Shown piece after piece: positions 6,386-19,965 of a stretch of DNA of 32,000 nucleotides. The notes beneath the pieces were generated by a model. That model searched no databases, had not been told where the DNA came from, and was given only the letters and a program-made list of their open reading frames with translations. Within the stretch, counting starts at the first letter, position 1; each line of letters opens with the position of its first letter. Source of the DNA: Candidatus Pacearchaeota archaeon (lineage in GTDB: Archaea; Nanobdellota; Nanobdellia; Pacearchaeales; UBA284); NCBI GenBank assembly GCA_026016245.1, contig CP061211.1, positions 480,001-512,000 on the forward strand. Reading direction: 5' to 3'. A program made the translations under genes and the position numbers.

Positions 6386-8365
6386 TTAAAAATTGTGAGT
6401 TCTAAAAACTCTTACATCAGGAGATAAAAGAAAGATATGGTCTTCTCTGCTTCTTAAACCGCGATATATTCTTTGTAAAAACTCTCTTCTTGCTTTGTCT
6501 ATATAAAACATATTATAATATTGGGGTTTAGTTCTCTTTAAAATTCTCCAAAAAAGCGAATTAACATTTGGATAAGGATATTTAGTCAGAATTATACTAT
6601 TACATATTTCTCCTGGAAAATCTACCCCCCTATTACATTTTGTGGAAAATAAAATTTCTATTTCTCCTTGCTTGAATTTTTTAACAGCTTCTCCTACACT
6701 ATCTTGTTGCTGTAGATATCTAAGTTTTTTCTGAGTCATAATATTCAAATTAAACTCTTTTATTTCTTGTTCAGTTGGAAGATCTTTAAAAGAATTAACA
6801 TGAACCAAAACAGGTTTCTTTGCCTTTTCTATACTTTTTGATAATGCCAAAAGATACTGTTTTCTTGTTATTCTTCCTTTTTGAAAATTTTTATATCTAC
6901 AATCAATTTCAAATTTTGTTTTTAAAAAGTCGATTTTTCCAGGAGTTTTAGTTTCTGCTTCAATAATCTTGAAATTATCCAGACCAAAAATATTTTTTAG
7001 AACATCTTTAGAGTGTATTGTGCCTGACATCAATACAATAATCTTATTTTTATCAAGAAGCTCTTTAAACTTTTTCTCAAGATTTGTTGTTACTAATCTA
7101 ACAATAAACTCTTTTCCTTTATCTCTGTATGATTCTTCTTTACAAAAAGAAAGATATGTTTCATCAAAAAAATTATCAAAAGTTTTAGCTACTTCTTCTA
7201 TATGATAACAATAATTTTCTTCATCACATTCAACACAATTCATAAGATCAGAATCTAAAAAATATTTCAGCAAATCAAAAATTTCACTATTCTTTATATG
7301 AATGATTTTCTCACTCAGAATATATTCCTCAATTTGCTTATCTTTGTCTTTTAAAATTTCATTTGATAGAGCTATTAATTTATTAATTATTTTTTGTGTT
7401 TTTTCATCTTCTGTAAACAACCCTCCTAAAGCCAAATTAAGTCTATTAAGATTAATTTTCTTAGTATTTGAGAAACTGTCTAAAAATTCATCACATTCAT
7501 CTATAATCTCTATTTCTGTGGTTGGCTTTCTGTTCATCAATGTTTCTAATTTATATTTCTGGCTGTTAAAAATTATTACATCTGCATCAATATAAGCATT
7601 AAACTGGTCATAATAACCACAACCTCGTTTTCTTTGATGAATTGTATAATTTCTATCCATCAAACCAGTATAATTCCTTTGATTAGCCTTTAAATTAAGT
7701 TTTATTTCAGAAGGAACAATAGGACTCCAGTAAGGACATATGGGGGCTATAGACATTCTTCTCACATCATTTATAGAAATAAAAGCTGTGTCTATTTTAG
7801 GATTCTTTTTTAAATACTCTCTAATTTTCTTGGAATTTTTTTCTTTAATCTCAATTCTACAAGGAAGAAATGGATTATCACATAAAATATAGTCCTTTTC
7901 CAGGTTATATTTTTCATTTAACTCATTATCTTCATTATTCTTAAAATCATCTCCAAAATCACTTAATTTAGAGTCCTTTTGCTCTTTTTCCTTCTGCACT
8001 AATTTTTGCATCTTTTCTTGTTCTTGTAAATAAGGACATATATGATTAACTCTTCCTGTTATAACTTTGATTTTTAATTTTTGGCTATTTTCCTTTAATA
8101 GATACTTTTTACTTGTATAATCATCTTCATACTGCTTTTGTAAGGCTTTGGATGGAACAACAATAGAGGTTTTTCCAATTTCTTTTGCTAAATTTAAAGC
8201 CACTATGCTTTTTCCAGTGCCACAAACTCCTTTAATAAAAATAACTTTATATCCTTCATCAATTGCTTCAAGGACCTCTTTAACAATATCTTCCTGGCTT
8301 TTATTATTAGAAAAAATCAATGGTTTCAATATCTCATTTTTATTATTTTCATATAAACTCCACAT
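6386..8365 (-). CDS. XPD/Rad3/DinG-like superfamily 2 DNA helicase with Fe-S cluster cysteines
   Basis: 659 aa. Walker A GVCGTGKS; motif II IIDECDEF; VLMSGTI; STKCNRGVDFPG; QRIYRGLRSREDHIFLLSPDVRV. Four Cys lie between motifs I and II (NHICPY, LCDNPFLPC, APICPYW). Confidence 0.8.
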   Translation of the reverse strand: MWSLYENNKNEILKPLIFSNNKSQEDIVKEVLEAIDEGYKVIFIKGVCGTGKSIVALNLAKEIGKTSIVVPSKALQKQYEDDYTSKKYLLKENSQKLKIKVITGRVNHICPYLQEQEKMQKLVQKEKEQKDSKLSDFGDDFKNNEDNELNEKYNLEKDYILCDNPFLPCRIEIKEKNSKKIREYLKKNPKIDTAFISINDVRRMSIAPICPYWSPIVPSEIKLNLKANQRNYTGLMDRNYTIHQRKRGCGYYDQFNAYIDADVIIFNSQKYKLETLMNRKPTTEIEIIDECDEFLDSFSNTKKINLNRLNLALGGLFTEDEKTQKIINKLIALSNEILKDKDKQIEEYILSEKIIHIKNSEIFDLLKYFLDSDLMNCVECDEENYCYHIEEVAKTFDNFFDETYLSFCKEESYRDKGKEFIVRLVTTNLEKKFKELLDKNKIIVLMSGTIHSKDVLKNIFGLDNFKIIEAETKTPGKIDFLKTKFEIDCRYKNFQKGRITRKQYLLALSKSIEKAKKPVLVHVNSFKDLPTEQEIKEFNLNIMTQKKLRYLQQQDSVGEAVKKFKQGEIEILFSTKCNRGVDFPGEICNSIILTKYPYPNVNSLFWRILKRTKPQYYNMFYIDKARREFLQRIYRGLRSREDHIFLLSPDVRVFRTHNF

Positions 8366-10115: not shown

Positions 10116-10140
10116 TTTTATAAAGTATACTTAGTATACT
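10116..10140 (+). promoter_or_regulatory. TATA-like box plus tandem 8-bp palindromes (AGTATACT x2), putative operator of the R-M operon
   Basis: TTTTATAAA at 10116-10124. AGTATACT at 10124-10131 and 10133-10140; each is its own reverse complement. The second ends 5 nt before ATG 10146. Confidence 0.45.
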
Positions 10141-10145
10141 AAAAG

Positions 10146-10304
10146 ATGGCTAAGGGAATTAATGGAAATAACAAGAGCACTATAAAACTCAGTAAAGAAA
10201 CTAAAGAAAAACTAATTAATTTAGACATCTCCCGAAAAAATAAGTCTTTTGAAGAGATAATTCTAGAATTAATTAAATCTTATGGGGAGAAAAATGGAAA
10301 ATGA
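10146..10304 (+). CDS. small (52 aa) RHH/VapB-like putative regulator or antitoxin, translationally coupled to hsdM
   Basis: Below the track size cut-off. Hand translation: [52 protein letters not shown]. The pattern (beta-strand TIKLS, then helix..KSFEEII.ELI) resembles small archaeal RHH/antitoxin-type proteins. The stop TGA 10302-10304 overlaps the hsdM ATG at 10301. Confidence 0.5.
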
Positions 10305-11836
10305 CAAATAATGGTGCAAATCTTGGTTTTGAACAAAAACTATGGCAAGCTGCTGATAAATTAAGAAGTAATATGGATGCTGCAGAATATAAGCATGTAG
10401 TTCTTGGCCTTATATTCTTAAAGTATATTTCTGATGCTTTTGAAGAAAGACATGAATATTTACAAGAGCATTTGCATGAAGGATGTGACCCTGAAGAGCC
10501 AGATGAATACAAAGAGGAGAATGTTTTTTGGGTTCCGCCAATAGCTAGATGGGATTATATTAAAAAAAATGCAAAAAAGCCAACAATAGGCGAAATTATT
10601 GATAAGGCTATGGAAGCCATAGAAAGAGATAATCCTTCTTTGAAAGGTGTTTTGCCTAAAAATTATGCAAGGCCTGGATTAAATAAACAAAGATTAGGAG
10701 AATTAATTGATTTAATTGGATCTATTGCATTAGGAGATTATGACAGTAGGTCTAAAGATATTTTAGGAAGAGTTTATGAATATTTTCTTGGCCAGTTTGC
10801 AGATGCAGAAGGAAAAAAAGGCGGGCAGTTCTATACCCCAAGATGTATAGTTAAAATTCTTGTTGAAATGATTGAACCTTATAAAGGAAGAGTCTTTGAT
10901 CCTTGCTGTGGTTCTGGAGGAATGTTTGTTCAATCTGAAAAATTCATTAAAGAGCATAGCGGGAGAATAGGGGATATTTCTATTTATGGCCAAGAATCAA
11001 ATCAAACAACATGGAAATTATGTAAAATGAATATGGCAATTAGAGGAATTGATGCTAATATTAAATGGGGAGATTCTTTCCATGATGACCAGCATAAAGA
11101 CTTAAAAGCAGATTTTGTTCTTGCTAATCCTCCCTTTAATGATTCGGACTGGAATGGACAGCTTTTACAAGAAGATGTAAGATGGAAGTTTGGGGTTCCA
11201 CCAACAGGAAATGCTAATTTTGCATGGGTTCAGCATTTTATTCATCATTTAAATCCTTCAGGAATAGCTGGTTTTGTTTTAGCTAATGGCTCAATGTCTT
11301 CTAATACATCAAATGAAGGGGAAATTAGAAAAAACATCATTAATGCTGATATGGTTGATTGCATGATTGCTCTTCCTAGCCAATTATTCTATAATACAAT
11401 GATTCCTGCTTGCTTATGGTTTGTTACAAGAGACAAAAAAGACAGTAAATTCAGAGACAGAAGAAACACAGTTCTTTTTATTGATGCCAGAAACATGGGA
11501 AAGATGATAGACAGAAGGCATAAAGAACTAACTGATGAGGAAATAAAGAAGATTGCAGACACGTATCATTCTTGGAGAGGAGAAAACAAACAAAAATACA
11601 AAGACATTCCAGGATTTTGCAAATCTGCCTCATTAAAAGAAATTGAAAAAAACAATTTCATCCTCACACCAGGAAGATATGTCGGAGCAAAAGAAGAGGA
11701 AGAAGATAAAGAAGTCTTTGATGAAAAGATGAAGAGATTGACTTCTGAACTTTCAGAACAGATGAAACAAGGGCAGAAACTAGATGAAGAAATAAAGAAG
11801 AATTTGGGGGGCTTGGTTGGAGGATTTAGAAGATGA
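10301..11836 (+). CDS. hsdM: Type I restriction-modification system, DNA methyltransferase subunit M
   Basis: 511 aa. HsdM N-terminal domain ([36 protein letters not shown]), AdoMet motif [10 protein letters not shown], catalytic LANPPFN. Confidence 0.95.
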
Positions 11837-13008
11837 AAAGATTCTTTGCTTGGATTAAAGAAAACGTTTTTCTTATTTTAGAATCAATTATTTTATTACT
11901 AATTCCTATTTTTAATTTTATTAGTTCACAAATTTTAATCTATCAGAAAATTATAAGTTGGGTTTTGTTTCTACTAATTCTCATTGATGTTTTGTTTAAG
12001 ATAAATGAAAAAATAAGGGAGAAGAAGAAAGAAAGAGCACTAAAAATGGAAAATGAAAAAAGAGGGGAAACTGAAAGAAAAAGATATGAAACTATAGAAG
12101 AAATGAAAAAGAATTTAGAAGAACAGAAAAATTTTAATTTAGAATACAAAGAAAAAAAGGAAAGATCCATAAAAATATTAAATAAATTCTTTAACGAAAG
12201 TCTACTAAATGAAGAGGATATTTTAAGTCTAGCGAAGTCATCTAGTTATTATATTCTTTTTATTTATAGTTGGCCTTTTCCAGAAATCAAAAATAAAAGA
12301 TATAAGTTCATAACAACTAGACAATACCCCCTCTTTTTAAATGATATCGGATTTACAAGAATGGGCAGTTCAAGAAGCACCTTTTTCATTATAAAAAAAG
12401 ATAGATTAGAAAAGAAATACCACAATATTGCAAGTTTTAAAAAATTTCTCAATAAGAATTTAGAAGAGATAAGAAAAGAAGAATTTAAAATGTATTTAGA
12501 AGAATTAAAAAAACAAGACAAGAAAGTATATACTAAATATTCAAAAAAGAGTTACTCTGAATATTTGAAAATAAATTTTCTACTACTTGAGAATATCATC
12601 CATTCTGGGAATCTTGGTCTTGTGAGTGGGGAGTATATTGGTCTTGGTGGGAAAAAACAAGTTGAAGAAATAAACAAACAAATTTTATCAGGAATAGAAC
12701 TTTCTGAAATTGACTTAAAAGAAAATGTTAAAATAAAGATTAGAGATTATTTTCAAAAGCAGGACTTTAATCTCTTACTAGAAGGAATTAAACAAAGAAC
12801 AATAAATAAAATTTCAAAATCGAGAGTTAAACTAAAAGACGAATTAAATATTGCTAATGTATTAGAAATAGCTGGAAAAAACAAACAGGATTTACAAAAA
12901 GCATTAGATAAAATTGGTATACCAAATGCTAAGAATCTCGCTACCAAGATGAAACAAATTGCAGAAGAATATTTAGAAGCATTAAACGATTTAAAGATAA
13001 ACCTTTAA
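11833..13008 (+). CDS. unknown 2-TM + coiled-coil protein embedded in the Type I operon
   Basis: 391 aa. Its ATG overlaps the hsdM stop (ATGA). It has two N-terminal hydrophobic helices, a K/E-rich segment ([38 protein letters not shown]) and an unassigned C-terminal region. Confidence 0.6.
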
Positions 13009-13014
13009 TAGAAA

Positions 13015-13057
13015 ATGAAACAACAAACAAAATTCAAGCAAACTGAAAATAAGGAAA
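13015..13057 (+). pseudogene. vestigial duplicate of the hsdS 5' end
   Basis: atgaaacaacaaacaaaattcaagcaaactgaaaataaggaaa aligns to the hsdS start at 14069-14109 (37 of 43 columns). It encodes MKQQTKFKQTE versus the hsdS MKSQTKFKQTE. The frame dies after 24 codons and is out of frame with ATG 13062. Confidence 0.65.
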
Positions 13058-13061
13058 CAAA

Positions 13062-14072
13062 ATGCCAACACAAACAGGTAAATCACTAATTGTAGTTGAT
13101 ACTAATATTATAAGAACCAAGCAAGATTGGGAATCAGATTTTTTTGAACTCTCGCCTAAAGGAACATTTACCGAATTAATTTATTACATAGAAAAAAATA
13201 ACTTACAAAATCTAGTTAATATTGCAATTCCTGAGATTGTAATTGAAGAGTTTTCTGAGTCTAAAAAAGAGAATTTTAATAATTCTTTAACTGGATTAAA
13301 GAAGAAGTTAGAACTTTTTAAAAAAATGCCTTGTTGTGATTTTTCAAATATAAAATTACCAGAAGAGTCATTTGATTATGGAAACTATATAACCCAAAAA
13401 ATAAATGAATTAATCACTGCTAAAAATTTTATTAAGATTATTAAGATAGATGCTACCAAGTCTCATGAGGTGTTAGAAGATCTAAAAAAAAGAGTTTTCG
13501 AAGGAAAAAAACCTTTCAAAAAGGGAAGCGATAGAGGATTTAAAGATTCATTAATTTGGCATTGTTTTTTGCATAATGTAGATGTAAATACTTTTGATTA
13601 TTTTTACTTTCTAAGTGAGAATTCAGAAGATTTTAATGAAGAATTAAAAGAAGAATTTGAGAGCAGATTTCAGAGGAATTTAAACTTCTTTACGGATGTA
13701 AAAGAAATGATTTCAAATCTAAATGAATATTATTATTTATATGAAGACTACCCAGAAATAATTGCTCATTTGCAAACGGACTATTTCAAGGGGCAATTAA
13801 TGGATTTTATATCTGATATCTTAGGTATAGGAATAAATAATTTTGAGATTATAAATTTTTGTAAAGGGATAGAAGAGATGAGTTTAGAAAAATTCTATGA
13901 ATTAGAATTACAAGAAGAATTCCCAGATGAAATAATAGAAATCCTAAAATTAATCCAAATTGAGATTAAGAATGAGGGTATTGAATATCTTGCTTTAGTC
14001 ATTTTTGATTTTTCATCGAATACAATAGTTGATGTAAGATTAAATAAGAAAGACGGGAGACTAGTAATATGA
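13062..14072 (+). CDS. PIN-like (DUF4935-type) putative nuclease embedded in the Type I operon
   Basis: 336 aa. N-terminal SLIVVDTNIIR, then IPEIVIEE, GFKDSLIWH and FLSENSEDF, which is the acidic-residue layout of PIN-like domains. The stop overlaps the hsdS ATG (ATGA 14069-14072). Confidence 0.55.
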   Translation: MPTQTGKSLIVVDTNIIRTKQDWESDFFELSPKGTFTELIYYIEKNNLQNLVNIAIPEIVIEEFSESKKENFNNSLTGLKKKLELFKKMPCCDFSNIKLPEESFDYGNYITQKINELITAKNFIKIIKIDATKSHEVLEDLKKRVFEGKKPFKKGSDRGFKDSLIWHCFLHNVDVNTFDYFYFLSENSEDFNEELKEEFESRFQRNLNFFTDVKEMISNLNEYYYLYEDYPEIIAHLQTDYFKGQLMDFISDILGIGINNFEIINFCKGIEEMSLEKFYELELQEEFPDEIIEILKLIQIEIKNEGIEYLALVIFDFSSNTIVDVRLNKKDGRLVI

Positions 14073-15325
14073 AATCCCAAACAAAATTCAAACAAACTGA
14101 AATAGGAAAAATCCCTGAAGGCTGGGAAATCTTGAGAGTAACGGATTTAGGGAGAGTTATTACGGGAAAAACTCCACCAACAAAAATAAAGGAATACTTC
14201 GGTTCAGATTTTCCATTCATAAAAATACCTGATCTGGGAAAGTCAGTTTATATTGAGAAATCTGAAACTATGCTCTCTAAAAAAGGAGCGGGATATATGG
14301 GTAACCTAAAGCTACCAAAAGATTCAGTGATGGTTTCATGTTTAGCAACAATCGGTAAAGTAGGCATTACAAAAAGAGATTCATTCACAAATCAGCAAAT
14401 AAACTCTTTAATTTGTAATAAAGATAAAGTCATCCCATTGTGGATATACTACTTTTTTAAGAATAATCTCTTTTATTTAGAAAGTTTGGGTGGCGGTGGT
14501 TCTGTTTACACAAACATTTCTAAAAGCCGGTTTGAGAACGCATCAATCCCTATTCCAAGGATAAAAGAACAGGAAAGGATTATTAATATCTTATTTGACT
14601 TAGATTCAAAAATCGAATTCAACCAACAAATGAACAAGAGTTTAGAAGCAATCGGCCAAGCAATCTTTAAGAGATGGTTTGTTGATTTTGAATTTCCAAA
14701 TGAAAAAGGCAAGCCATACAAAAGCTCAGGCGGAGAGATGGTTGAATCTGAATTAGGAAAGATACCGAAAGGATGGGGGGTTGGGAGATTTAAAGATATT
14801 TCAAAACTTCAGATGGGAATATCCCCAAAAGGCAATAGTTATAACGAAGATAGAAAAGGTATTCCTTTACTAAACGGGGCTGCGGATTTCTCAGGCAAAT
14901 TAATCTTACCAAAAAAGTTTACTACTGAGCCAATTAAAAAGTGCAATACGGGCGATTTAGTTTTTTGTATTAGGGCAACAATAGGAAATGTAACTTTTGC
15001 AGATAAAGAATTTTGTCTTGGTCGTGGTGTCGCAGCATTAAAAATAAATAATAATTTTAGAGAGTTTTTTTACTATTCCCTTATTGGTTCATTAGAAAAA
15101 ATGATTTCAAGTGCTACTGGAAGCGTAATCATGGGCTTGTCAAAGACAGATATAGAAGACTGCAAAATTATTATTCCTGATAATAATTTAATTAAGATTT
15201 TTAACAAGAATCTATTCTCATTTTTTGAAATGCAAAAAAAGCTTGATGAAGAAATTCAAAGCTTATCACAAATCCGAGACTCCCTTTTACCTAAATTGAT
15301 GTCTGGGAAGATTAGAGTTATTTAA
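14069..15325 (+). CDS. hsdS: Type I restriction-modification system, specificity subunit S
   Basis: 418 aa. Two target-recognition halves each open with KIPEGW / KIPKGW. A central conserved helix (EQERIINILFDLDSKIEFNQQMNKSLEAIGQAIFKRWFVDFEFP) and a C-terminal conserved helix (LSQIRDSLLPKLMSGKIRV) are present. Confidence 0.9.
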   Translation: MKSQTKFKQTEIGKIPEGWEILRVTDLGRVITGKTPPTKIKEYFGSDFPFIKIPDLGKSVYIEKSETMLSKKGAGYMGNLKLPKDSVMVSCLATIGKVGITKRDSFTNQQINSLICNKDKVIPLWIYYFFKNNLFYLESLGGGGSVYTNISKSRFENASIPIPRIKEQERIINILFDLDSKIEFNQQMNKSLEAIGQAIFKRWFVDFEFPNEKGKPYKSSGGEMVESELGKIPKGWGVGRFKDISKLQMGISPKGNSYNEDRKGIPLLNGAADFSGKLILPKKFTTEPIKKCNTGDLVFCIRATIGNVTFADKEFCLGRGVAALKINNNFREFFYYSLIGSLEKMISSATGSVIMGLSKTDIEDCKIIIPDNNLIKIFNKNLFSFFEMQKKLDEEIQSLSQIRDSLLPKLMSGKIRVI

Positions 15326-16088
15326 CATTATTTTTAGCCCTATCTAAAAAATCTATTATTCTTTGTCTTAGCCCATTCAAGATATTTCTGAAAGACTGCG
15401 GATTAACTAAGTAAGGTACAGGTTCATTTGGATCGACATTCAAATCTTTTACCATTAACTCCATTGGAGGAGCATTCATTACTATTCTTTGTTCTTTGGA
15501 ATATCTATCAACCCACTCCTCAATTTGCCTTATTGGTTGAGAAATAAACATGGGGATATCAAATCTTTCTATTTTCCCATTTTTTAAACCAATATTTAAT
15601 TCCGCTTCTATTCTTCTATATTGGGTTTCTTTATCTGATTTTTTCATCTTTAATCCTGTGTTCTTCTCTTCATCACCCCAATATTCACCATATCCTCTAA
15701 CTTCCTTATTTAACCATTTTTCATCATCATTCATCTTTAGTTTTTTAGCTAATCTCAAAGACATTTCAGATATTGTCGAGATTGACTTATTTTCATCAAG
15801 ATAATTTTCTATTTTACTTATTAGTTTTTTTGCGTTTGTTTCTTCTTCTCTTATTTCCTCCGAGAACGCTACCACTTTTTTACTTTCTTCTTTGAAATGA
15901 GTTATTTGAGAGTTTGTAACATTGCCAGTTATTTGAACTAATTGTGAGTTAGGAGAGTTGATAAGAAGTGCTTTTTGATTTTTCTCAATTTTAATAAGAT
16001 ATTTAACAGCAAATCCAAATCCTGCTAAGGAAACTATCAATAAGGCTATCTCTACTATATGTTCAATAAACCATTCTTCAAATGCCAT
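15318..16088 (-). CDS. membrane-anchored AbiTii-like protein, antisense inside the R-M locus
   Basis: The track ORF starts at TTG 16094; ATG 16088 (MAFEEWF) is preferred. N-terminal TM helix IVEIALLIVSLAGFGFAV. The segment LRLAKKLKMNDDEKWLNKEVRGYGEY...QYRRIEAEL resembles the AbiTii signature (W..EL.GY ... YR). Assigned from memory only. Confidence 0.45.
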   Translation of the reverse strand: MAFEEWFIEHIVEIALLIVSLAGFGFAVKYLIKIEKNQKALLINSPNSQLVQITGNVTNSQITHFKEESKKVVAFSEEIREEETNAKKLISKIENYLDENKSISTISEMSLRLAKKLKMNDDEKWLNKEVRGYGEYWGDEEKNTGLKMKKSDKETQYRRIEAELNIGLKNGKIERFDIPMFISQPIRQIEEWVDRYSKEQRIVMNAPPMELMVKDLNVDPNEPVPYLVNPQSFRNILNGLRQRIIDFLDRAKNNVK

Positions 16089-16180
16089 AAACAATCAATA
16101 CAAATTGATTATTTAATCTTTATGTAGTCTTTAAATCTATCAGAGAAAGAAGTTAAAAACCTCAAATTCCTTATTAAAAA

Positions 16181-19100
16181 ATGCCAAAAATCATAACAGA
16201 ATCTGATGTTGAAGAAAATGTCTTAATCATACTTGAAAAGCTTGGATATGAAATAATTCGTGGAGATAATGAAGAATATCTGCCTAGGGGAGGCAAGGCT
16301 TTGAGAGATGATTATAAAGATGTTGTTCTTGTTGACAAACTGCGATATGCTCTTAGAAAGATTAATCCTTCTGTTCCTGAAGAAGCAAGAGAAATGGCTT
16401 TAAAGCAAATATTGAGAGGCGAGAACCAGAAGCTTATAGCTGATAATGAAAGCTTTCATAAGATGCTTGTTAATGGCATAAGTATCCCTATAAGAAAAGC
16501 TGGAGAAGAAAGGCATGTTATTGTAAAACTTTTTGATTTTGAAAATCCTGAAAACAATGAGTTTACAGCAGTTAATCAGTTTACTGTAGAAGAAAATAAT
16601 ATTGAAAGAAGACCTGATGTTGTTTTATTTGTTAATGGAATCCCTTTAGTTATTCTTGAGCTAAAAAATTTAGCAGATGAAAAAGCAGATATATGGATAG
16701 CTTATGATCAATTTCAAACATATAAGGAACAATTGCCTTATTTATTCAGGTTTAATGAATTTCTAATTATTAGCGATGGATTAGAAGCAAGAGCAGGAAC
16801 AATAACTTCTGAAAAAGAGAGATTTATGCAATGGAAAACAATAAATGGAGAAAAACCAAAAAAAGGATTAATTGAAATTGAAGTTTTACTTAAAGGAATG
16901 TGTGATAAATCAAGAATTTTGGATATTATCAGAAATTTTATTGTTTTTGAAAAAGATAAAGAAGTAAAAAAGAAACTTGCTGCTTATCATCAATATTGGG
17001 CTACAAACAAAGCAATAGAATCATCAATAAAAGCAAGAAAAGGCAACAAAAAAGCAGGGGTTGTTTGGCATACTCAAGGTTCTGGAAAAAGTTTAACAAT
17101 GGTTTTTTATTCGGGAAAATTAGTAGGAGAATTTGATAATCCAACAATAATAGTTTTAACAGATAGAAATGATTTAGATGACCAGTTATTTGGAACTTTT
17201 GCAAGATGCAAGGATGTTCTAAGACAAACTCCTATTCAAGCTAATTCAAGAAAAGAATTGCAAAAATTATTGAAAGTATCTTCAGGAGGAATTGTATTTA
17301 CAACAATTCAAAAATTCTTTCCAGATGAAAACAGAGAAAAATATCCTGTTTTATCAGAAAGAGACAATATTATAGTAATAGCAGATGAAGCTCACAGAAG
17401 CCAGTATGGTTTTTCTGCTAAAATACTAAACAAACAAGATAAGACATTAATCACTTATGGTTATGCTAAATATTTAAGAGATGCTTTGCCAAATGCATCT
17501 TTTATTGGCTTTACTGGAACTCCTATTGAAAAGGCAGACAGATCAACCCCTGCAGTATTTGGAAATTATGTTGATAAATATGATATAGAAAGAGCTGTTG
17601 AAGATGGAGCCACTGTAAGGATCTTTTATGAAAGCAGATTAGCAAAATTAGAACTTAAACCAGAAGAAAGGCCTAAAATAGACAAAGAATTTGAAGAAGC
17701 CACAGAAGGAGAAGAAGTTGAAGGCAAAGAAAAATTAAAAAGCAAATGGGCAAGATTAGAGAAAGTTGCAGGTTCTCCAAAAAGAATTAAAAAAATAGCA
17801 GAAGATATAATTGAACATTTTGAATCAAAAACTGAAGTTTTAGAAGGTAAAGGCATGATTGTTTGCATGTCTAGAAGGATTTGTGTTGATTTATACAATG
17901 AAATAATAAGATTAAGGCCTAGATGGCATAATAAAGACGATAATAAAGGATTTATAAAAGTAGTTATGACTGGTTCTGCCTCTGATCCAAAAGAATGGCA
18001 AGAGCATATAAGAAATAAAAATAGAAGAAAGCAAGTAGGAGATAATTTTAAAGATCCTAAACATGAGATTGGATTATTAATTGTTAGAGATATGTTTTTA
18101 ACAGGGTTTGATGCTCCTTCTCTCCATTCAATGTATCTAGACAAATCAATAAAAGGCCATACATTAATGCAAGCAATAGCAAGAGTAAATCGTGTTTATC
18201 CAGGAAAAGAAGGAGGATTAATTATTGATTATATGGGTGTTGGAGCAGAACTAAAAAAAGCATTAATAAATTACACTGAAAGTGGCGGAAAAGGAAAACC
18301 GACTTTTGACCAAGCTCAAGCAGTTAAGCTAATGATTGAAAAATATGAAGTTGTTAGAGATATGTTTCATGGATTTAATTATAAAAAATTCTTTGAACTC
18401 AAACCAAATAAGAGAATTTCTTTTATTCCAAATGCAATGGAGCATATACTAAAAGAAAGGGGCAAAAAAGAGAGATTTGAAAGAGAAGTAACTGCTCTCC
18501 TAAAAGCATTTTCTTTAGCTGTTCCTCATGACAAAGCTATTAATATAAAAGAAGATGTTGGACTTTTTCAAGCAATAAAATCTGCAATATTTAAAACAAC
18601 TGAAGTAACAAAAAGAAAAGAGGAAAAGTTTGATACTGCAATAAAGCAGATATTATCTAAAGCAGTGATCTCTGATAGAATTATTGATATTTTTGAAGCA
18701 GCAGGAATTCAAAAACCAGAATTATCTATTTTATCAGAAGGATTTTTAGCAGAAGTTAAAGAAATGCCACAGAAAAATTTGGCTTTTGAAGCCTTGAAAA
18801 AGTTATTGAATGATGAAATAAGAGTTATTTCTAAAAAGAATATGGTTCAAGGAAAATCTTTCATGGATTTACTAGATAAAACAATAAAAAGATATACTAA
18901 TAGAAGCATAGAAGCTGCCCAAGTAATAGAAGAATTAATTGAATTAGCAAGAAAAATAAGAGATGAAAAAGGCAGAGGAAAAGAACTTAAAATAAATGAT
19001 GATGAATTGGCATTTTATGATGCTCTTGGAGTTAATGACAGTGCAGTTAAAGTTTTGGGAGATGAAATATTAAGAAAAATTGCATTAGAGCTGACAAAAA

Positions 19101-19282
19101 TGATAAGAAATGGTGTTACAATAGATTGGACTCAAAGAGAAAGTGTTCAAGCAAAAATTCGTGTAAATGTAAGGAAAATTTTAAAAAAATATGATTATCC
19201 TCCGGATAAACAAAAGAAAGCAGTCGAGACAGTATTAAAACAAGCTGAATTAGTTGCTAAAAATTGGGCAGAAAAAGATTAA
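16181..19282 (+). CDS. hsdR: Type I restriction-modification system, restriction/helicase subunit R
   Basis: 1033 aa. N-terminal PD-(D/E)xK ([20 protein letters not shown]), Walker [15 protein letters not shown] box [14 protein letters not shown], motif [10 protein letters not shown]. Confidence 0.95.
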
Positions 19283-19965
19283 ATTTTTTGCTCTTCTCTG
19301 AAACTATAATATTCTTTGTTACCCATTATAATATGATCAGTTAATTTTATCTTCAAAAGTTTTCCAGCTTCTCTTATTCTTTCAGTAACATTTATGTCTC
19401 CTTGCGATGGTGCAGAATCTCCAGAAGGATGATTATGAATAAGAATTATTTTAGCAGCGCTATTTTTTATTGCGGACCTAAAAATTTCTCTTGAATGCAC
19501 TAATGAAGCATCGAGTATGCCTTTTGTAATTAATTGCTCTCCAATAACATTATTCCTATTATTTAACATTAAAATATAAAAATTCTCTTGTTTTTCATCT
19601 TTTAATCTTTCATGAAATAAATTAAAAACATCTTCTGCACAAGTTATCTTCTTTATTGGTTTTTTAGATTGATTAATACGTTTTTGGAGTTCTGCTATTG
19701 TTAATATCTGCATTGCTTTGGATGGTCCAATTCCGTTGATTTTCTGTAATTCTGTTAAGGAACATTCCAGAAGCTTATCTAAACCATACTCATTAATTAA
19801 ACGATTGGACATCTCTATTACATTTTCTCCAACTTGTCCTTTTTTGCCACGCGTTCCAGTTCTCAAAAGTATTGCAAAAAGCTCAGCGTCGCTTAATGCT
19901 TCTGGCCCATGTTTTAGAAATCTTTCTCTTGGCTTAGAAGAATCTGGCAAGTCTCTTATTTTCAT
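19279..19965 (-). CDS. radC: RadC-like JAB/MPN domain protein
   Basis: 228 aa. N-terminal HhH region ([29 protein letters not shown]) and JAMM motif [17 protein letters not shown]. The 3' end overlaps the hsdR stop by 4 nt (convergent). Confidence 0.9.

What the first reader, a model, noticed from the sequence alone, without database searches (positions are those of the whole stretch)
11833..14072. Two non-R-M genes (2-TM coiled-coil protein + PIN-like nuclease) wired between hsdM and hsdS
Seen in sequence:
- The hsdM stop overlaps the start of the 391-aa ORF (ATGA 11833-11836).
- The stop of the 336-aa ORF overlaps the hsdS start (ATGA 14069-14072). Both genes are therefore chained into the M-S operon.
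- The 391-aa protein has two N-terminal hydrophobic helices, a K/E-rich coiled coil, and a C-terminal region of about 270 aa that I cannot assign.
- The 336-aa protein opens with a PIN-type strand-Asp (SLIVVDTNIIR), followed by IPEIVIEE, GFKDSLIWH and FLSENSEDF.

Established knowledge: Type I loci can harbour latent effectors between R-M genes, such as the PrrC anticodon nuclease inside EcoprrI and RloC-type genes.

Inference: this is a membrane sensor/effector plus RNase-like pair acting as a second-line (abortive or back-up) module coupled to the Type I enzyme. I do not recognise this pairing as a described system.
Basis: partly seen in the sequence, partly recalled or inferred. Interest (0 to 1): 0.8.

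Follow-up and report, generated by a model that had tools for sequence, protein, structure and literature searches.

The report
Defence-type cargo genes inside restriction operon
Two extra genes sit inside a DNA-restriction operon of a tiny DPANN archaeon: a PIN-type nuclease that turns out to be embedded in such operons across many bacteria and archaea, and a previously unannotated membrane protein. They are real and co-transcribed but were acquired separately as swappable cassettes rather than forming a dedicated pair.

Summary
In this Candidatus Pacearchaeota contig, hsdM (10301-11836), a 391-aa ORF, a 336-aa ORF and hsdS (14069-15325) are chained by ATGA overlaps at 11833 and 14069. No terminator-like site lies between them.

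- **ORF336** is a Pfam PIN_12/DUF4935 protein (64.6 bits against a cut-off of 32). D13, E63, D157 and D162 are intact.
- Of 35 relatives' loci sampled in reference genomes and IMG/VR, 27 lie in Type I R-M loci, mostly hsdM-PIN_12-hsdS. None of these has an ORF391 homolog.
- **ORF391** founds an unannotated family: 72 clusters among 1.84 billion proteins. The four named members are DPANN archaea and Patescibacteria.
- ORF391 has a two-helix membrane hairpin, a long helical stalk and a strongly basic cytoplasmic region with no detectable fold relative. Ten of about 16 distinct loci (the window included) are in Type I operons.
- The two genes co-occur in only two loci, and there the PIN_12 genes come from different lineages.
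- A 37-nt copy of the hsdS 5' end follows ORF391 and flanks the PIN_12 gene. Similar hsdS-5' and hsdM-3' scars bound cargo in sister loci, so these are cassettes.
- In a syntenic locus, PD-Lambda-5 occupies ORF391's place.

Best reading: two independent second-line defence cargos. The functions themselves are inferred, not shown.

The parts
10146..10304 (+). 52-aa ORF whose stop overlaps the hsdM start (ATGA). Possible ribbon-helix-helix / VapB-like regulator. Two palindromic AGTATACT octamers lie just upstream (10124-10140).
   Evidence: Sequence. Pfam hits are below threshold: DUF7557 20.8 bits (cut-off 25) and VAPB_antitox 18.1 bits (cut-off 27.9). Not found in any related locus.
10301..11836 (+). 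hsdM, Type I methyltransferase subunit, 511 aa.
   Evidence: PF02384 E 1.5e-117 and PF12161 E 2e-29.
11833..13008 (+). ORF391, founding member of an unannotated membrane-anchored family.
   Evidence: No Pfam, PADLOC, NCBIfam or PHROG family. 72 representative clusters by profile search. AlphaFold model pLDDT 91.3, pTM 0.75. No Foldseek hit at E<=0.001 in PDB or BFVD.
11866..12006 (+). ORF391 aa 12-58: two hydrophobic helices forming a membrane hairpin. Basic residues on both sides suggest N-in/C-in topology.
   Evidence: Hydropathy analysis. 56 of 60 family members have at least one N-terminal hydrophobic segment, and 43 of 60 have at least two.
12007..12195 (+). ORF391 aa 59-121: K/E-rich helical stalk, modelled as continuous with the second membrane helix.
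   Evidence: AlphaFold helix 36-121.
12211..13005 (+). ORF391 aa 127-391: basic alpha/beta domain (127-256), linker, and helical C-terminal domain (294-391). Conserved residues are R163, Y165, G173, F174, R176, E217, K300 and K335. No catalytic-type motif.
   Evidence: median net charge +10 for the alpha/beta domain across 60 members. Only weak local Foldseek hits to helix-hairpin-helix domains.
13012..13048 (+). Truncated copy of the hsdS 5' end, the upstream arm of a direct repeat. It opens a 24-codon leader ORF (13015-13089) that overlaps the ORF336 start.
   Evidence: Equivalent remnants occur in L008, L013 and L011.
13062..14072 (+). ORF336, a PIN_12/DUF4935 protein. PIN-like domain aa 10-191 (13089-13634) and C-terminal region aa 192-336 of unknown fold.
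   Evidence: PF16289 E 1.9e-17, 64.6 bits against cut-off 32. D13, E63, D157 and D162 are invariant in 33 relatives. Position 187 is D in 30 of 33 but N here.
14066..14102 (+). Downstream arm of the direct repeat: the functional hsdS 5' end.
14069..15325 (+). hsdS, specificity subunit, 418 aa with two target-recognition domains.
   Evidence: PF01420 E 1.4e-44, two matched stretches.
15318..16094 (-). AbiTii-domain gene (258 aa, hydrophobic N-terminus) on the opposite strand in the hsdS-hsdR slot. A third embedded cargo.
   Evidence: PF18864 E 5.6e-12, 46.7 bits against cut-off 27.6. PADLOC AbiTii E 1.7e-13.
16181..19282 (+). hsdR, restriction subunit, 1033 aa.
   Evidence: HSDR_N, SWI2_SNF2, T1R_D3-like and T1RH-like_C.

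Best explanation
The region is an intact Type I restriction-modification operon whose hsdM-hsdS junction serves as a slot for exchangeable cargo genes. It holds two cargos that were acquired separately.

**(1) ORF336**
ORF336 is a PIN_12/DUF4935 predicted metal-dependent nuclease. It belongs to a clade that sits between hsdM and hsdS in many Bacillota, Proteobacteria, methanogens and DPANN archaea. It has no adjacent antitoxin gene. I infer that it is a latent RNase-type second-line effector. I further infer that its dose, and perhaps its activity, is tied to the M2S methylase core by translational coupling, working like PrrC without being a member of that family.

**(2) ORF391**
ORF391 is the first described member of a rare family. 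The four members that carry organism names come from DPANN archaea and CPR bacteria.
- It has an N-in/C-in two-helix membrane hairpin, a helical stalk of about 65 residues that probably drives oligomerisation, and a strongly basic cytoplasmic alpha/beta plus helical region with no catalytic motif.
- I infer that it is a membrane-anchored nucleic-acid-binding sensor/effector of the abortive-infection type. It would act on its own and be carried by, rather than mechanistically part of, the R-M enzyme.

**How cargo enters**
The evidence points to recombination through the conserved 3' end of hsdM and 5' end of hsdS. This leaves short duplicated scars, and the 37-nt hsdS 5' copy after ORF391 is one.

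**Shown:** gene structure, family membership, recurrent embedding, independence of the two genes, and the scars.
**Inferred:** defence function, RNase activity, membrane action and the trigger.
For: **Operon structure**
- ATGA overlaps at both ends and no + strand terminator-like site.

**PIN_12**
- PF16289 scores 64.6 bits against a cut-off of 32.
- D13, E63, D157 and D162 are invariant in 33 relatives.
- 24 of 32 loci in GTDB representative genomes, and 3 of 3 in IMG/VR, carry hsd genes around the PIN_12 gene. In 18 of the 32, hsdM ends at the PIN_12 start.
- None of these loci holds an ORF391-family gene, by tblastn or by HMM.

**ORF391 family**
- Only 9 clusters by word-based search and 72 by exhaustive profile search, nearly all 330-420 aa and matching end to end.
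- No library has a model for it.
- The model is confident (pLDDT 91.3) but has no fold neighbour in PDB or BFVD.
- The membrane hairpin is conserved and the alpha/beta domain is basic, median +10.

**ORF391 contexts**
- It lies directly 3' of hsdM in the window and in L001, L003/4/5, L008, L009/10 and L013.
- It lies between hsdS and hsdR in a Patescibacteria locus at 33-35% identity, with overlapping stops and starts (L048/49).
- It lies next to another N6 methylase in L007.

**Independence of the two genes**
- They co-occur only in the window and in L009/10.
- The L009 PIN_12 is closer to bacterial PIN_12 genes, and the window's is closest to L016/L006, which lacks ORF391.

**Cassette scars**
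- Window: 13012-13048 and 14066-14102.
- L013: one hsdS-5' remnant.
- L008: two hsdS-5' remnants plus an hsdM-3' remnant between cargos.
- L011: an hsdS-5' remnant upstream of the ORF391 homolog itself.

**The slot carries defence genes**
- PD-Lambda-5 A+B (E 1e-117 and 1e-120) replaces ORF391 in the syntenic locus L006.
- Sister loci carry a PycTM-like gene, SoFic, AbiLi/AbiLii and an OLD/AriA-like ATPase. The window itself carries AbiTii.

**Literature**
- Embedding in Type I R-M predicts defence function (bioRxiv 10.1101/2024.01.29.577857; PMC11411939).
Against: - No functional data exist for either family.
- The PIN fold was not checked by structure. A profile search of the PIN_12 alignment against PDB sequences found nothing.
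- ORF336 carries N at position 187, where 30 of 33 relatives have D, so activity could be reduced.
- The PIN_12 sample is biased. It was selected by a family motif plus tblastn similarity to ORF336, and many of the Bacillota loci are related.
- Matelska et al. 2017 described DUF4935 genes as usually monocistronic (PMC5499597).
- About a third of the ORF391-family loci with context are not in R-M operons (L015/55, L050-53, L056, L057, L058/61). Many contigs are short, and only four members carry organism names.
- Two independent co-occurrences of ORF391 with PIN_12 among about nine close-clade loci could reflect synergy rather than coincidence.
- ORF391's position first after hsdM, and its ATGA coupling, would also fit a true R-M accessory role.
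Confidence: 0.6

Rival explanations
1. ORF391 (membrane sensor) and ORF336 (PIN RNase effector) form one obligate two-gene abortive or back-up system coupled to the Type I enzyme.
For: Both genes are chained in one operon. The same gene order, hsdM - ORF391 homolog - PIN_12 - hsdS, recurs in L009/L010, where only a 2-nt gap separates the two genes. The window has a leader ORF bridging the two genes, which could couple their translation.
Against: 27 of 35 PIN_12 loci are in Type I operons without any ORF391-family gene. Seven of about nine close ORF391-clade loci, and all the more distant members, lack PIN_12. The two co-occurring PIN_12 genes are about 25% identical and belong to different lineages. 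The window's PIN_12 is bounded by an insertion scar.
Confidence: 0.1
2. ORF391 is an accessory subunit of the Type I enzyme rather than an autonomous effector. As a membrane-anchored, DNA-binding tether, it would hold the M2S or R2M2S complex at the inner face of the membrane where foreign DNA enters. This could matter in episymbiotic DPANN and CPR cells, which take up external DNA.
For: It lies immediately 3' of hsdM, translationally coupled, in six distinct loci, and next to another N6 methylase in L007. A CPR homolog sits between hsdS and hsdR with overlapping stops and starts. The cytoplasmic domains are basic and lack a catalytic motif. There are weak Foldseek hits to helix-hairpin-helix DNA-binding domains, for example the RadA N-terminal domain (2bke) at probability 0.85.
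Against: Family members occur away from any hsd gene (L015/55, L050-53, L056-58). Closely related Type I operons work without it: L006 has 74% HsdM identity, and so do all the bacterial PIN_12 loci. In L011 the gene is itself flanked by hsdS-5' repeats, like any other cargo. The helix-hairpin-helix similarity is not significant (E 0.5).
Confidence: 0.15
3. ORF336 is the toxin of a split VapBC-like toxin-antitoxin module that stabilises the R-M locus. Its antitoxin would be the 52-aa ribbon-helix-helix-like ORF at the head of the operon (10146-10304).
For: The 52-aa ORF overlaps the hsdM start (ATGA) and gives weak hits to VAPB_antitox (E 0.005) and DUF7557 (E 2.6e-4). Palindromic AGTATACT repeats lie just upstream. 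PIN proteins are the classic VapC toxins (PMC5499597).
Against: Both Pfam hits fall below their curated cut-offs. The small ORF is absent from every other PIN_12 or ORF391 locus. It lies 2.8 kb from the PIN gene. PIN_12 proteins are 320-370 aa with an extra C-terminal region, unlike VapC at about 130 aa.
Confidence: 0.07
4. Both genes are functionally neutral hitch-hikers left by recombination between Type I loci, with no role in immunity.
For: Recombination scars show that the slot accumulates DNA passively. GC content dips to 24-26% across the two genes, against 33-34% in hsdM and hsdS.
Against: Both ORFs are intact, and both families keep conserved residues and full length down to 20-25% identity across phyla and two domains of life. 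PIN_12 keeps the same position in many phyla. The same slots hold recognised defence genes.
Confidence: 0.05

Closest known systems
PrrC anticodon nuclease embedded in the EcoprrI Type I R-M locus (and RloC)
   Same: A nuclease gene sits inside a Type I R-M operon with no separate antitoxin. The proposed logic is the same: a latent RNase backs up restriction.
   Different: ORF336 has no ABC-ATPase domain and does not match the PADLOC PrrC model. It is a PIN_12 protein and sits between hsdM and hsdS, whereas by my recollection prrC sits between hsdS and hsdR. No activation mechanism is known.
DUF4935 / PIN_12 (PF16289), VapC-like group of the PIN superfamily (Matelska et al. 2017, PMC5499597)
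   Same: ORF336 scores above the Pfam cut-off. It has the N-terminal PIN-like region followed by an unassigned C-terminal region, and it keeps the conserved acidic residues.
   Different: That paper reported the family as of unknown function, almost entirely bacterial and usually monocistronic. Here the clade around ORF336 is mostly embedded in Type I operons and includes archaea. Position 187 is N instead of D.
Genes embedded in defence systems: TgvAB in the Vibrio cholerae VPI-2 Type I cluster (PMC11411939), and the HEC/PDC candidates of Payne et al. 2024 (bioRxiv 10.1101/2024.01.29.577857)
   Same: Uncharacterised genes are nested between hsd genes, and the embedding itself predicts a defence role.
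   Different: Neither ORF matches any PADLOC v2 model, including PDC and HEC. That survey used RefSeq genomes, where DPANN and CPR are scarce.
Two-helix membrane effectors of abortive-infection systems (PycTM of Pycsar, CBASS 2TM effectors, SLATT domains)
   Same: N-terminal membrane helices are joined to a cytoplasmic sensing region, and the genes lie in defence neighbourhoods.
   Different: There is no sequence match to the PycTM or SLATT models. No cyclase or signal-producing partner is present. The cytoplasmic region is about 270 aa and has an unrecognised fold.
Integron cassette arrays and recombination-driven hsdS shuffling
   Same: Promoterless cargo genes are stacked in one orientation behind a fixed gene, and each unit is bounded by repeated sequence.
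   Different: There is no integrase or attC-type site. The repeats are truncated ends of hsdS and hsdM with variable breakpoints (about 45-70 nt), which points to homologous plus illegitimate recombination rather than site-specific recombination. The repeats are direct, not the inverted repeats of phase-variable hsdS systems.

Membership tests
PIN_12 / DUF4935 (PF16289) | Score above the Pfam gathering threshold over the full model | tested here: met
   64.6 bits against cut-off 32, aa 10-191 aligned to model positions 1-172 of 172.
PIN_12 / DUF4935 (PF16289) | Conserved acidic active-site residues of PIN-like nucleases | tested here: met
   D13, E63, D157 and D162 are invariant in 33 relatives. 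A further acidic position (187) is D in 30 of 33 but N in ORF336.
PIN_12 / DUF4935 (PF16289) | PIN (Rossmann-like alpha/beta/alpha) fold confirmed by structure | not tested
A profile search against PDB sequences found no hit.
VapBC toxin-antitoxin | Small antitoxin gene immediately upstream of, and overlapping, a PIN toxin of about 130 aa | tested here: not met
   The upstream neighbour is the 391-aa membrane protein, 53 nt away. ORF336 is 336 aa. The distant 52-aa RHH-like ORF is below Pfam thresholds.
PrrC / RloC anticodon nucleases | ABC-ATPase N-domain plus anticodon-nuclease C-domain; match to the family model | tested here: not met
   No PADLOC or Pfam ATPase or PrrC hit for either ORF.
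PrrC / RloC anticodon nucleases | Gene embedded within a Type I R-M operon | tested here: met
PADLOC known and candidate defence systems (including PDC and HEC) | Match to any of the 5027 models | tested here: not met
   No family at E<=1 for ORF391 or ORF336. Of 9 PIN_12 relatives tested, 7 had no hit and 2 had C-terminal-only partial hits (PDC-S34, PDC-S15).
2TM abortive-infection effectors (PycTM, SLATT) | Sequence match to the family models | tested here: not met
   No Pfam or PADLOC hit for ORF391 or for 60 family members.
2TM abortive-infection effectors (PycTM, SLATT) | Membrane disruption on activation | not testable with these tools
   Requires experiment.
Type I restriction-modification system (host operon) | Full-length hsdM, hsdS (two target-recognition domains) and hsdR | tested here: met
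   Pfam domain sets are complete for all three.
ORF391 family (defined here) | About 330-420 aa; N-terminal hydrophobic hairpin, helical stalk, RxYPxFLxxxGFxR motif and conserved C-terminal helical domain | tested here: met

The most novel reading that the evidence does not exclude
ORF391 defines a membrane-anchored immune sensor/effector family found so far mainly in ultra-small DPANN and CPR cells, with a new fold. The conserved hsdM-3' and hsdS-5' ends of this widely transferred Type I family act as homology arms of an integron-like platform. Through it, defence cassettes (ORF391, PIN_12, PD-Lambda-5, PycTM-like and unknown genes) are captured, stacked, translationally coupled to the R-M genes and exchanged between lineages and domains.
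Probability: 0.25. Interest if true: 0.75.

Novelty: new variant of a known kind. Interest (0 to 1): 0.55.

Why it matters
- **Few known defences in these lineages.** A recent survey found that nearly a third of archaeal genomes carry no detected defence system beyond CRISPR-Cas and R-M (abstract of PMC12988326). An unannotated, membrane-anchored family that travels with Type I operons is a concrete candidate to test.
- **A function lead for DUF4935.** The PIN_12 result gives a Pfam family of unknown function a consistent genomic home between hsdM and hsdS. That makes a PrrC-like 'guard of the restriction enzyme' hypothesis directly testable.
- **A mechanism for embedding.** The duplicated hsdS-5' and hsdM-3' scars are physical evidence of how genes become embedded in defence operons, the premise behind guilt-by-embedding searches. 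Scanning for such scars could locate cargo boundaries automatically.

Tried and rejected
- **First AlphaFold run.** With 9 sequences the model was poor (pLDDT 66.5). It was replaced by the 60-sequence run.
- **PDB sequence searches.** Profile searches with the ORF391 and PIN_12 alignments found nothing meaningful.
- **Profile-profile comparisons.** The ORF391 family compared with the L006 440-aa gene and with the window's AbiTii protein showed no relation.
- **Pfam on 60 ORF391-family members.** Only scattered single-member chance hits appeared.
- **Other collections for ORF391.** The search was empty in GTDB representative genomes by pattern scan, IMG/VR, plasmids and phages. ORF336 was also absent from plasmids. 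Alignments A4 and A5 were too divergent for the locus finder.
- **Flanking repeats in bacterial loci.** No direct repeat above background flanks PIN_12 in bacterial hsdM-PIN_12-hsdS loci, so the scars are a feature of the DPANN loci.
- **The 52-aa RHH-like ORF.** It is not conserved in any related locus.
- **The hsdS-hsdR slot.** I looked for scars around AbiTii in the window and found none convincing.
- **Literature.** DUF4935/PF16289 appears in only two papers in the library, and PF16289 itself in one. It is absent from the supplements of Payne et al. 2024.

Full report
**1. Observation**

The ORF map and sequence confirm the following genes.
- hsdM: 10301-11836
- A 391-aa ORF: 11833-13008
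- A 336-aa ORF: 13062-14072
- hsdS: 14069-15325
- An opposite-strand 258-aa ORF: 15318-16094
- hsdR: 16181-19282
- RadC on the opposite strand: 19279-19965

The ATGA overlaps at 11833 and 14069 are real. Pfam shows complete HsdM, HsdS (two target-recognition domains) and HsdR, so the host system looks intact.

There are two corrections to the finding. The PIN strand-Asp is D13, not D14. The two inserted genes are separated by a 53-nt spacer rather than abutting. No terminator-like site lies on the + strand between 10000 and 16300. The exact proteins are on record from a 710,724-bp contig of a Candidatus Pacearchaeota MAG, a DPANN archaeon.

**2. ORF336**

ORF336 matches Pfam PIN_12 (PF16289, formerly DUF4935) at E 1.9e-17. 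The score is 64.6 bits against a cut-off of 32, and the match covers the whole model. In an alignment of 33 relatives, D13, E63, D157 and D162 are invariant. Position 187 is D in 30 of 33 but N here.

The only paper in the library that analyses the family classifies DUF4935 as a VapC-like PIN domain followed by an unassigned alpha/beta region. [quoted passage not shown] PADLOC, NCBIfam and PHROGs have no match.

A pattern-plus-tblastn scan of one genome per GTDB species returned 32 loci. tblastn with the window's Hsd proteins classified them as follows.
- 24 carry hsd genes around the PIN_12 gene.
- In 18 of these, hsdM ends at the PIN_12 start and hsdS follows.
- Four more have PIN_12 between hsdM and hsdS with extra DNA.
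- One has it between hsdS and hsdR, and one has it after hsdR.

The hosts are Bacillota, Gamma- and Alphaproteobacteria, Haloplasma, Methanimicrococcus and Woesearchaeota. All three IMG/VR hits have the same hsdM-PIN_12 arrangement.

The sample is biased toward relatives of ORF336. Within that clade, though, the position between hsdM and hsdS is the rule. None of these loci contains an ORF391-family gene, by tblastn or by an HMM run over six-frame translations.

**3. ORF391**

No model in Pfam, PADLOC, NCBIfam or PHROGs fits it. A word-indexed search of 5.8 billion proteins found eight relatives at 47-64% identity. An exhaustive profile search of 1.84 billion representatives found 72 clusters. 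Nearly all are 330-420 aa and align end to end. A Pfam scan of 60 members gave only scattered chance hits.

The four members that carry organism names are Pacearchaeota, Woesearchaeota, Nanoarchaeia and Patescibacteria.

With the 60-sequence alignment, AlphaFold gives a confident model (pLDDT 91.3, pTM 0.75) with these parts.
- Helix 2-31
- One long helix 36-121, comprising the second membrane helix plus a K/E-rich stalk
- An alpha/beta domain, 127-256
- A linker
- A helical domain, 294-386

Hydropathy shows the N-terminal hydrophobic hairpin in most members. The flanks are basic, which suggests both termini lie in the cytoplasm (inference from the positive-inside rule).

The conserved residues are R163, Y165, P166, G173, F174, R176, E217, K300 and K335. 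There is no acidic or histidine constellation of the kind expected for an enzyme. The alpha/beta domain has a median net charge of +10 across the family.

**4. Where ORF391 relatives sit**

In the close clade (47-64% identity), contexts are as follows.
- Directly after hsdM, with hsdS downstream, in the window and in L001, L003/4/5, L008, L009/10 and L013/14.
- After two small genes in L011/12.
- After a different N6 methylase (Eco57I-type) in L007.
- In a decayed locus in L002.

A Patescibacteria homolog at 33-35% identity lies between hsdS and hsdR, with overlapping stops and starts.

Other members at 31-36% identity lie outside any R-M operon.
- One is near HEPN_AbiU2 (L015/55).
- One is beside a C5 methylase and a type IV secretion cluster (L050-53).
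- One is beside a large serine recombinase (L058/61).
- Two are among unknown genes (L056, L057).

The family is therefore strongly, but not exclusively, linked to Type I operons and methylases. It was absent from the phage, plasmid and IMG/VR collections searched.

**5. Are the two genes a pair?**

They co-occur only in the window and in L009/10. Those two PIN_12 proteins are about 25% identical. The L009 protein's best matches are bacterial, and the window's best match is L016/L006, a Woesearchaeota locus without ORF391. The co-occurrence therefore arose at least twice from different PIN_12 lineages. Each gene occurs many times without the other, so an obligate two-gene system is unlikely.

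**6. Cassette scars**

Directly after the ORF391 stop lies a truncated copy of the hsdS 5' end. It spans 13012-13048, 86% identical over 37 nt to 14066-14102. A pattern search gave 2 matches against 0 expected. The PIN_12 gene is thus bracketed by direct repeats.

The same remnant appears wherever extra cargo separates an ORF391 homolog from hsdS.
- L013 has one remnant (MKTQKFKQTEIGEIK*).
- L008 has two. The second is followed at once by a remnant of the hsdM 3' end and then the next cargo gene.
- In L011 an hsdS-5' remnant lies upstream of the ORF391 homolog itself. The ORF391 gene is therefore a cassette too.
- Loci without extra cargo (L001, L003) have only the functional hsdS start. L009 has no scar.

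L001 also carries a duplicated hsdR 5' fragment ahead of the intact hsdR, downstream of cargo genes in the hsdS-hsdR slot.

Breakpoints vary (about 45-70 nt). I read this as homology-guided recombination through the conserved gene ends, not site-specific integration. Bacterial hsdM-PIN_12-hsdS loci show no such repeats.

In the window the remnant opens a 24-codon ORF (13015-13089) that overlaps the PIN_12 start. This could preserve translational coupling along the operon (inference).

**7. What the slots carry**

The Woesearchaeota locus L006 is syntenic with the window. Identities are HsdM 74%, PIN_12 39%, HsdS 63%, HsdR 63% and RadC 64%. In place of ORF391 it has a complete PD-Lambda-5 system (A at E 1.5e-117, B at E 1.4e-120) plus four unknown genes.

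Sister loci carry the following.
- A PycTM-like gene (L008)
- SoFic (L004)
- AbiLi/AbiLii (L010)
- An OLD/AriA-like ATPase (L048)
- A Schlafen-type gene (L006)

The window has an AbiTii gene in the hsdS-hsdR slot. Embedded genes in Type I systems have been shown or proposed to be defence systems (PMC11411939; bioRxiv 10.1101/2024.01.29.577857).

**8. Mechanism (inferred)**

ORF336 is most likely a latent metal-dependent RNase-type effector. Its expression is tied to the methylase core by its position between hsdM and hsdS. It may be unleashed when restriction is subverted, which resembles PrrC in logic but not in family. It lacks an adjacent antitoxin.

ORF391 is most likely a membrane-anchored, oligomeric, nucleic-acid-binding sensor/effector that works independently of the R-M enzyme. 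Family members exist outside R-M loci, and close Type I relatives function without it.

The rival readings are:
- a true pair;
- an R-M membrane tether;
- a split VapBC module with the 52-aa ORF at 10146-10304;
- neutral hitch-hikers.

They are scored in the rivals section.

**9. Novelty**

Embedding of defence genes in Type I operons is known, and PIN_12 is a known Pfam family. Three things appear to be new.
- The ORF391 family itself.
- The consistent hsdM-PIN_12-hsdS arrangement of this PIN_12 clade.
- The hsdS-5' and hsdM-3' scars that document cassette stacking.

I rate the finding a new variant of a known kind, of moderate to good interest.

Noticed in passing
window 13012-13048 and 14066-14102; L008 1445-1510, 2122-2262, 2902-2958; L013 1563-1607; L011 1252-1316: Truncated copies of the hsdS 5' end bound each cargo gene between hsdM and hsdS, and L008 also has copies of the hsdM 3' end. 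The ORF391 homolog in L011 is itself flanked this way. This looks like cassette stacking by recombination through the conserved gene ends.
   Followed up: yes
window 13015-13089: The hsdS remnant opens a 24-codon ORF (MKQQTKFKQTENKETKCQHKQVNH*) that ends 28 nt inside ORF336. It may keep translation coupled from ORF391 into the PIN_12 gene.
   Followed up: partly
window 10124-10304: A 52-aa ORF (10146-10304) has a stop that overlaps the hsdM start (ATGA). Its Pfam hits to DUF7557 and VAPB_antitox are below threshold. Two palindromic AGTATACT octamers lie just upstream. It could be a controller or antitoxin-like regulator. It is not conserved in any related locus.
   Followed up: partly
window 15318-16094 (- strand): An AbiTii-domain gene with a hydrophobic N-terminus lies antisense between hsdS and hsdR and overlaps the hsdS 3' end by 8 nt. 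It is a third embedded defence-type gene in the same operon.
   Followed up: partly
L006 5591-7758: In the syntenic Woesearchaeota Type I locus, the position held by ORF391 in the window is filled by a complete PD-Lambda-5 system (A and B) plus four unknown genes. PIN_12, hsdS, hsdR and RadC are conserved in order.
   Followed up: yes
L026, L017, L018, L042 against window 10301-11836: HsdM of this Pacearchaeota archaeon is 60-68% identical to HsdM of a gammaproteobacterial MAG, Alkaliphilus, Gottfriedia and Haloplasma. This implies recent transfer of this Type I family between domains.
   Followed up: partly
L001 17149-17838: A duplicated hsdR 5' fragment of about 650 nt, broken into two ORFs, lies directly upstream of the intact hsdR and downstream of three unknown cargo genes. 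It is a scar in the hsdS-hsdR slot, analogous to those in the hsdM-hsdS slot.
   Followed up: partly
window 11600-13800: GC content falls to 24-26% across ORF391 and ORF336, against 33-34% in hsdM and hsdS and about 28-31% in the surroundings.
   Followed up: no
window 19279-19965 (- strand): A RadC/JAB gene converges on hsdR, and its end overlaps the hsdR stop by 4 nt. The same arrangement occurs in L006.
   Followed up: partly
L048 3322-5016: In the Patescibacteria locus, hsdM carries an N-terminal MerR/HTH_17 DNA-binding domain fusion, and an OLD/AriA-like ATPase sits between hsdM and hsdS.
   Followed up: no
window 6386-8365 (- strand): A 659-aa helicase (Helicase_C_2, ResIII) lies upstream of the R-M locus. 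I did not examine whether it is housekeeping or defence-related.
   Followed up: no
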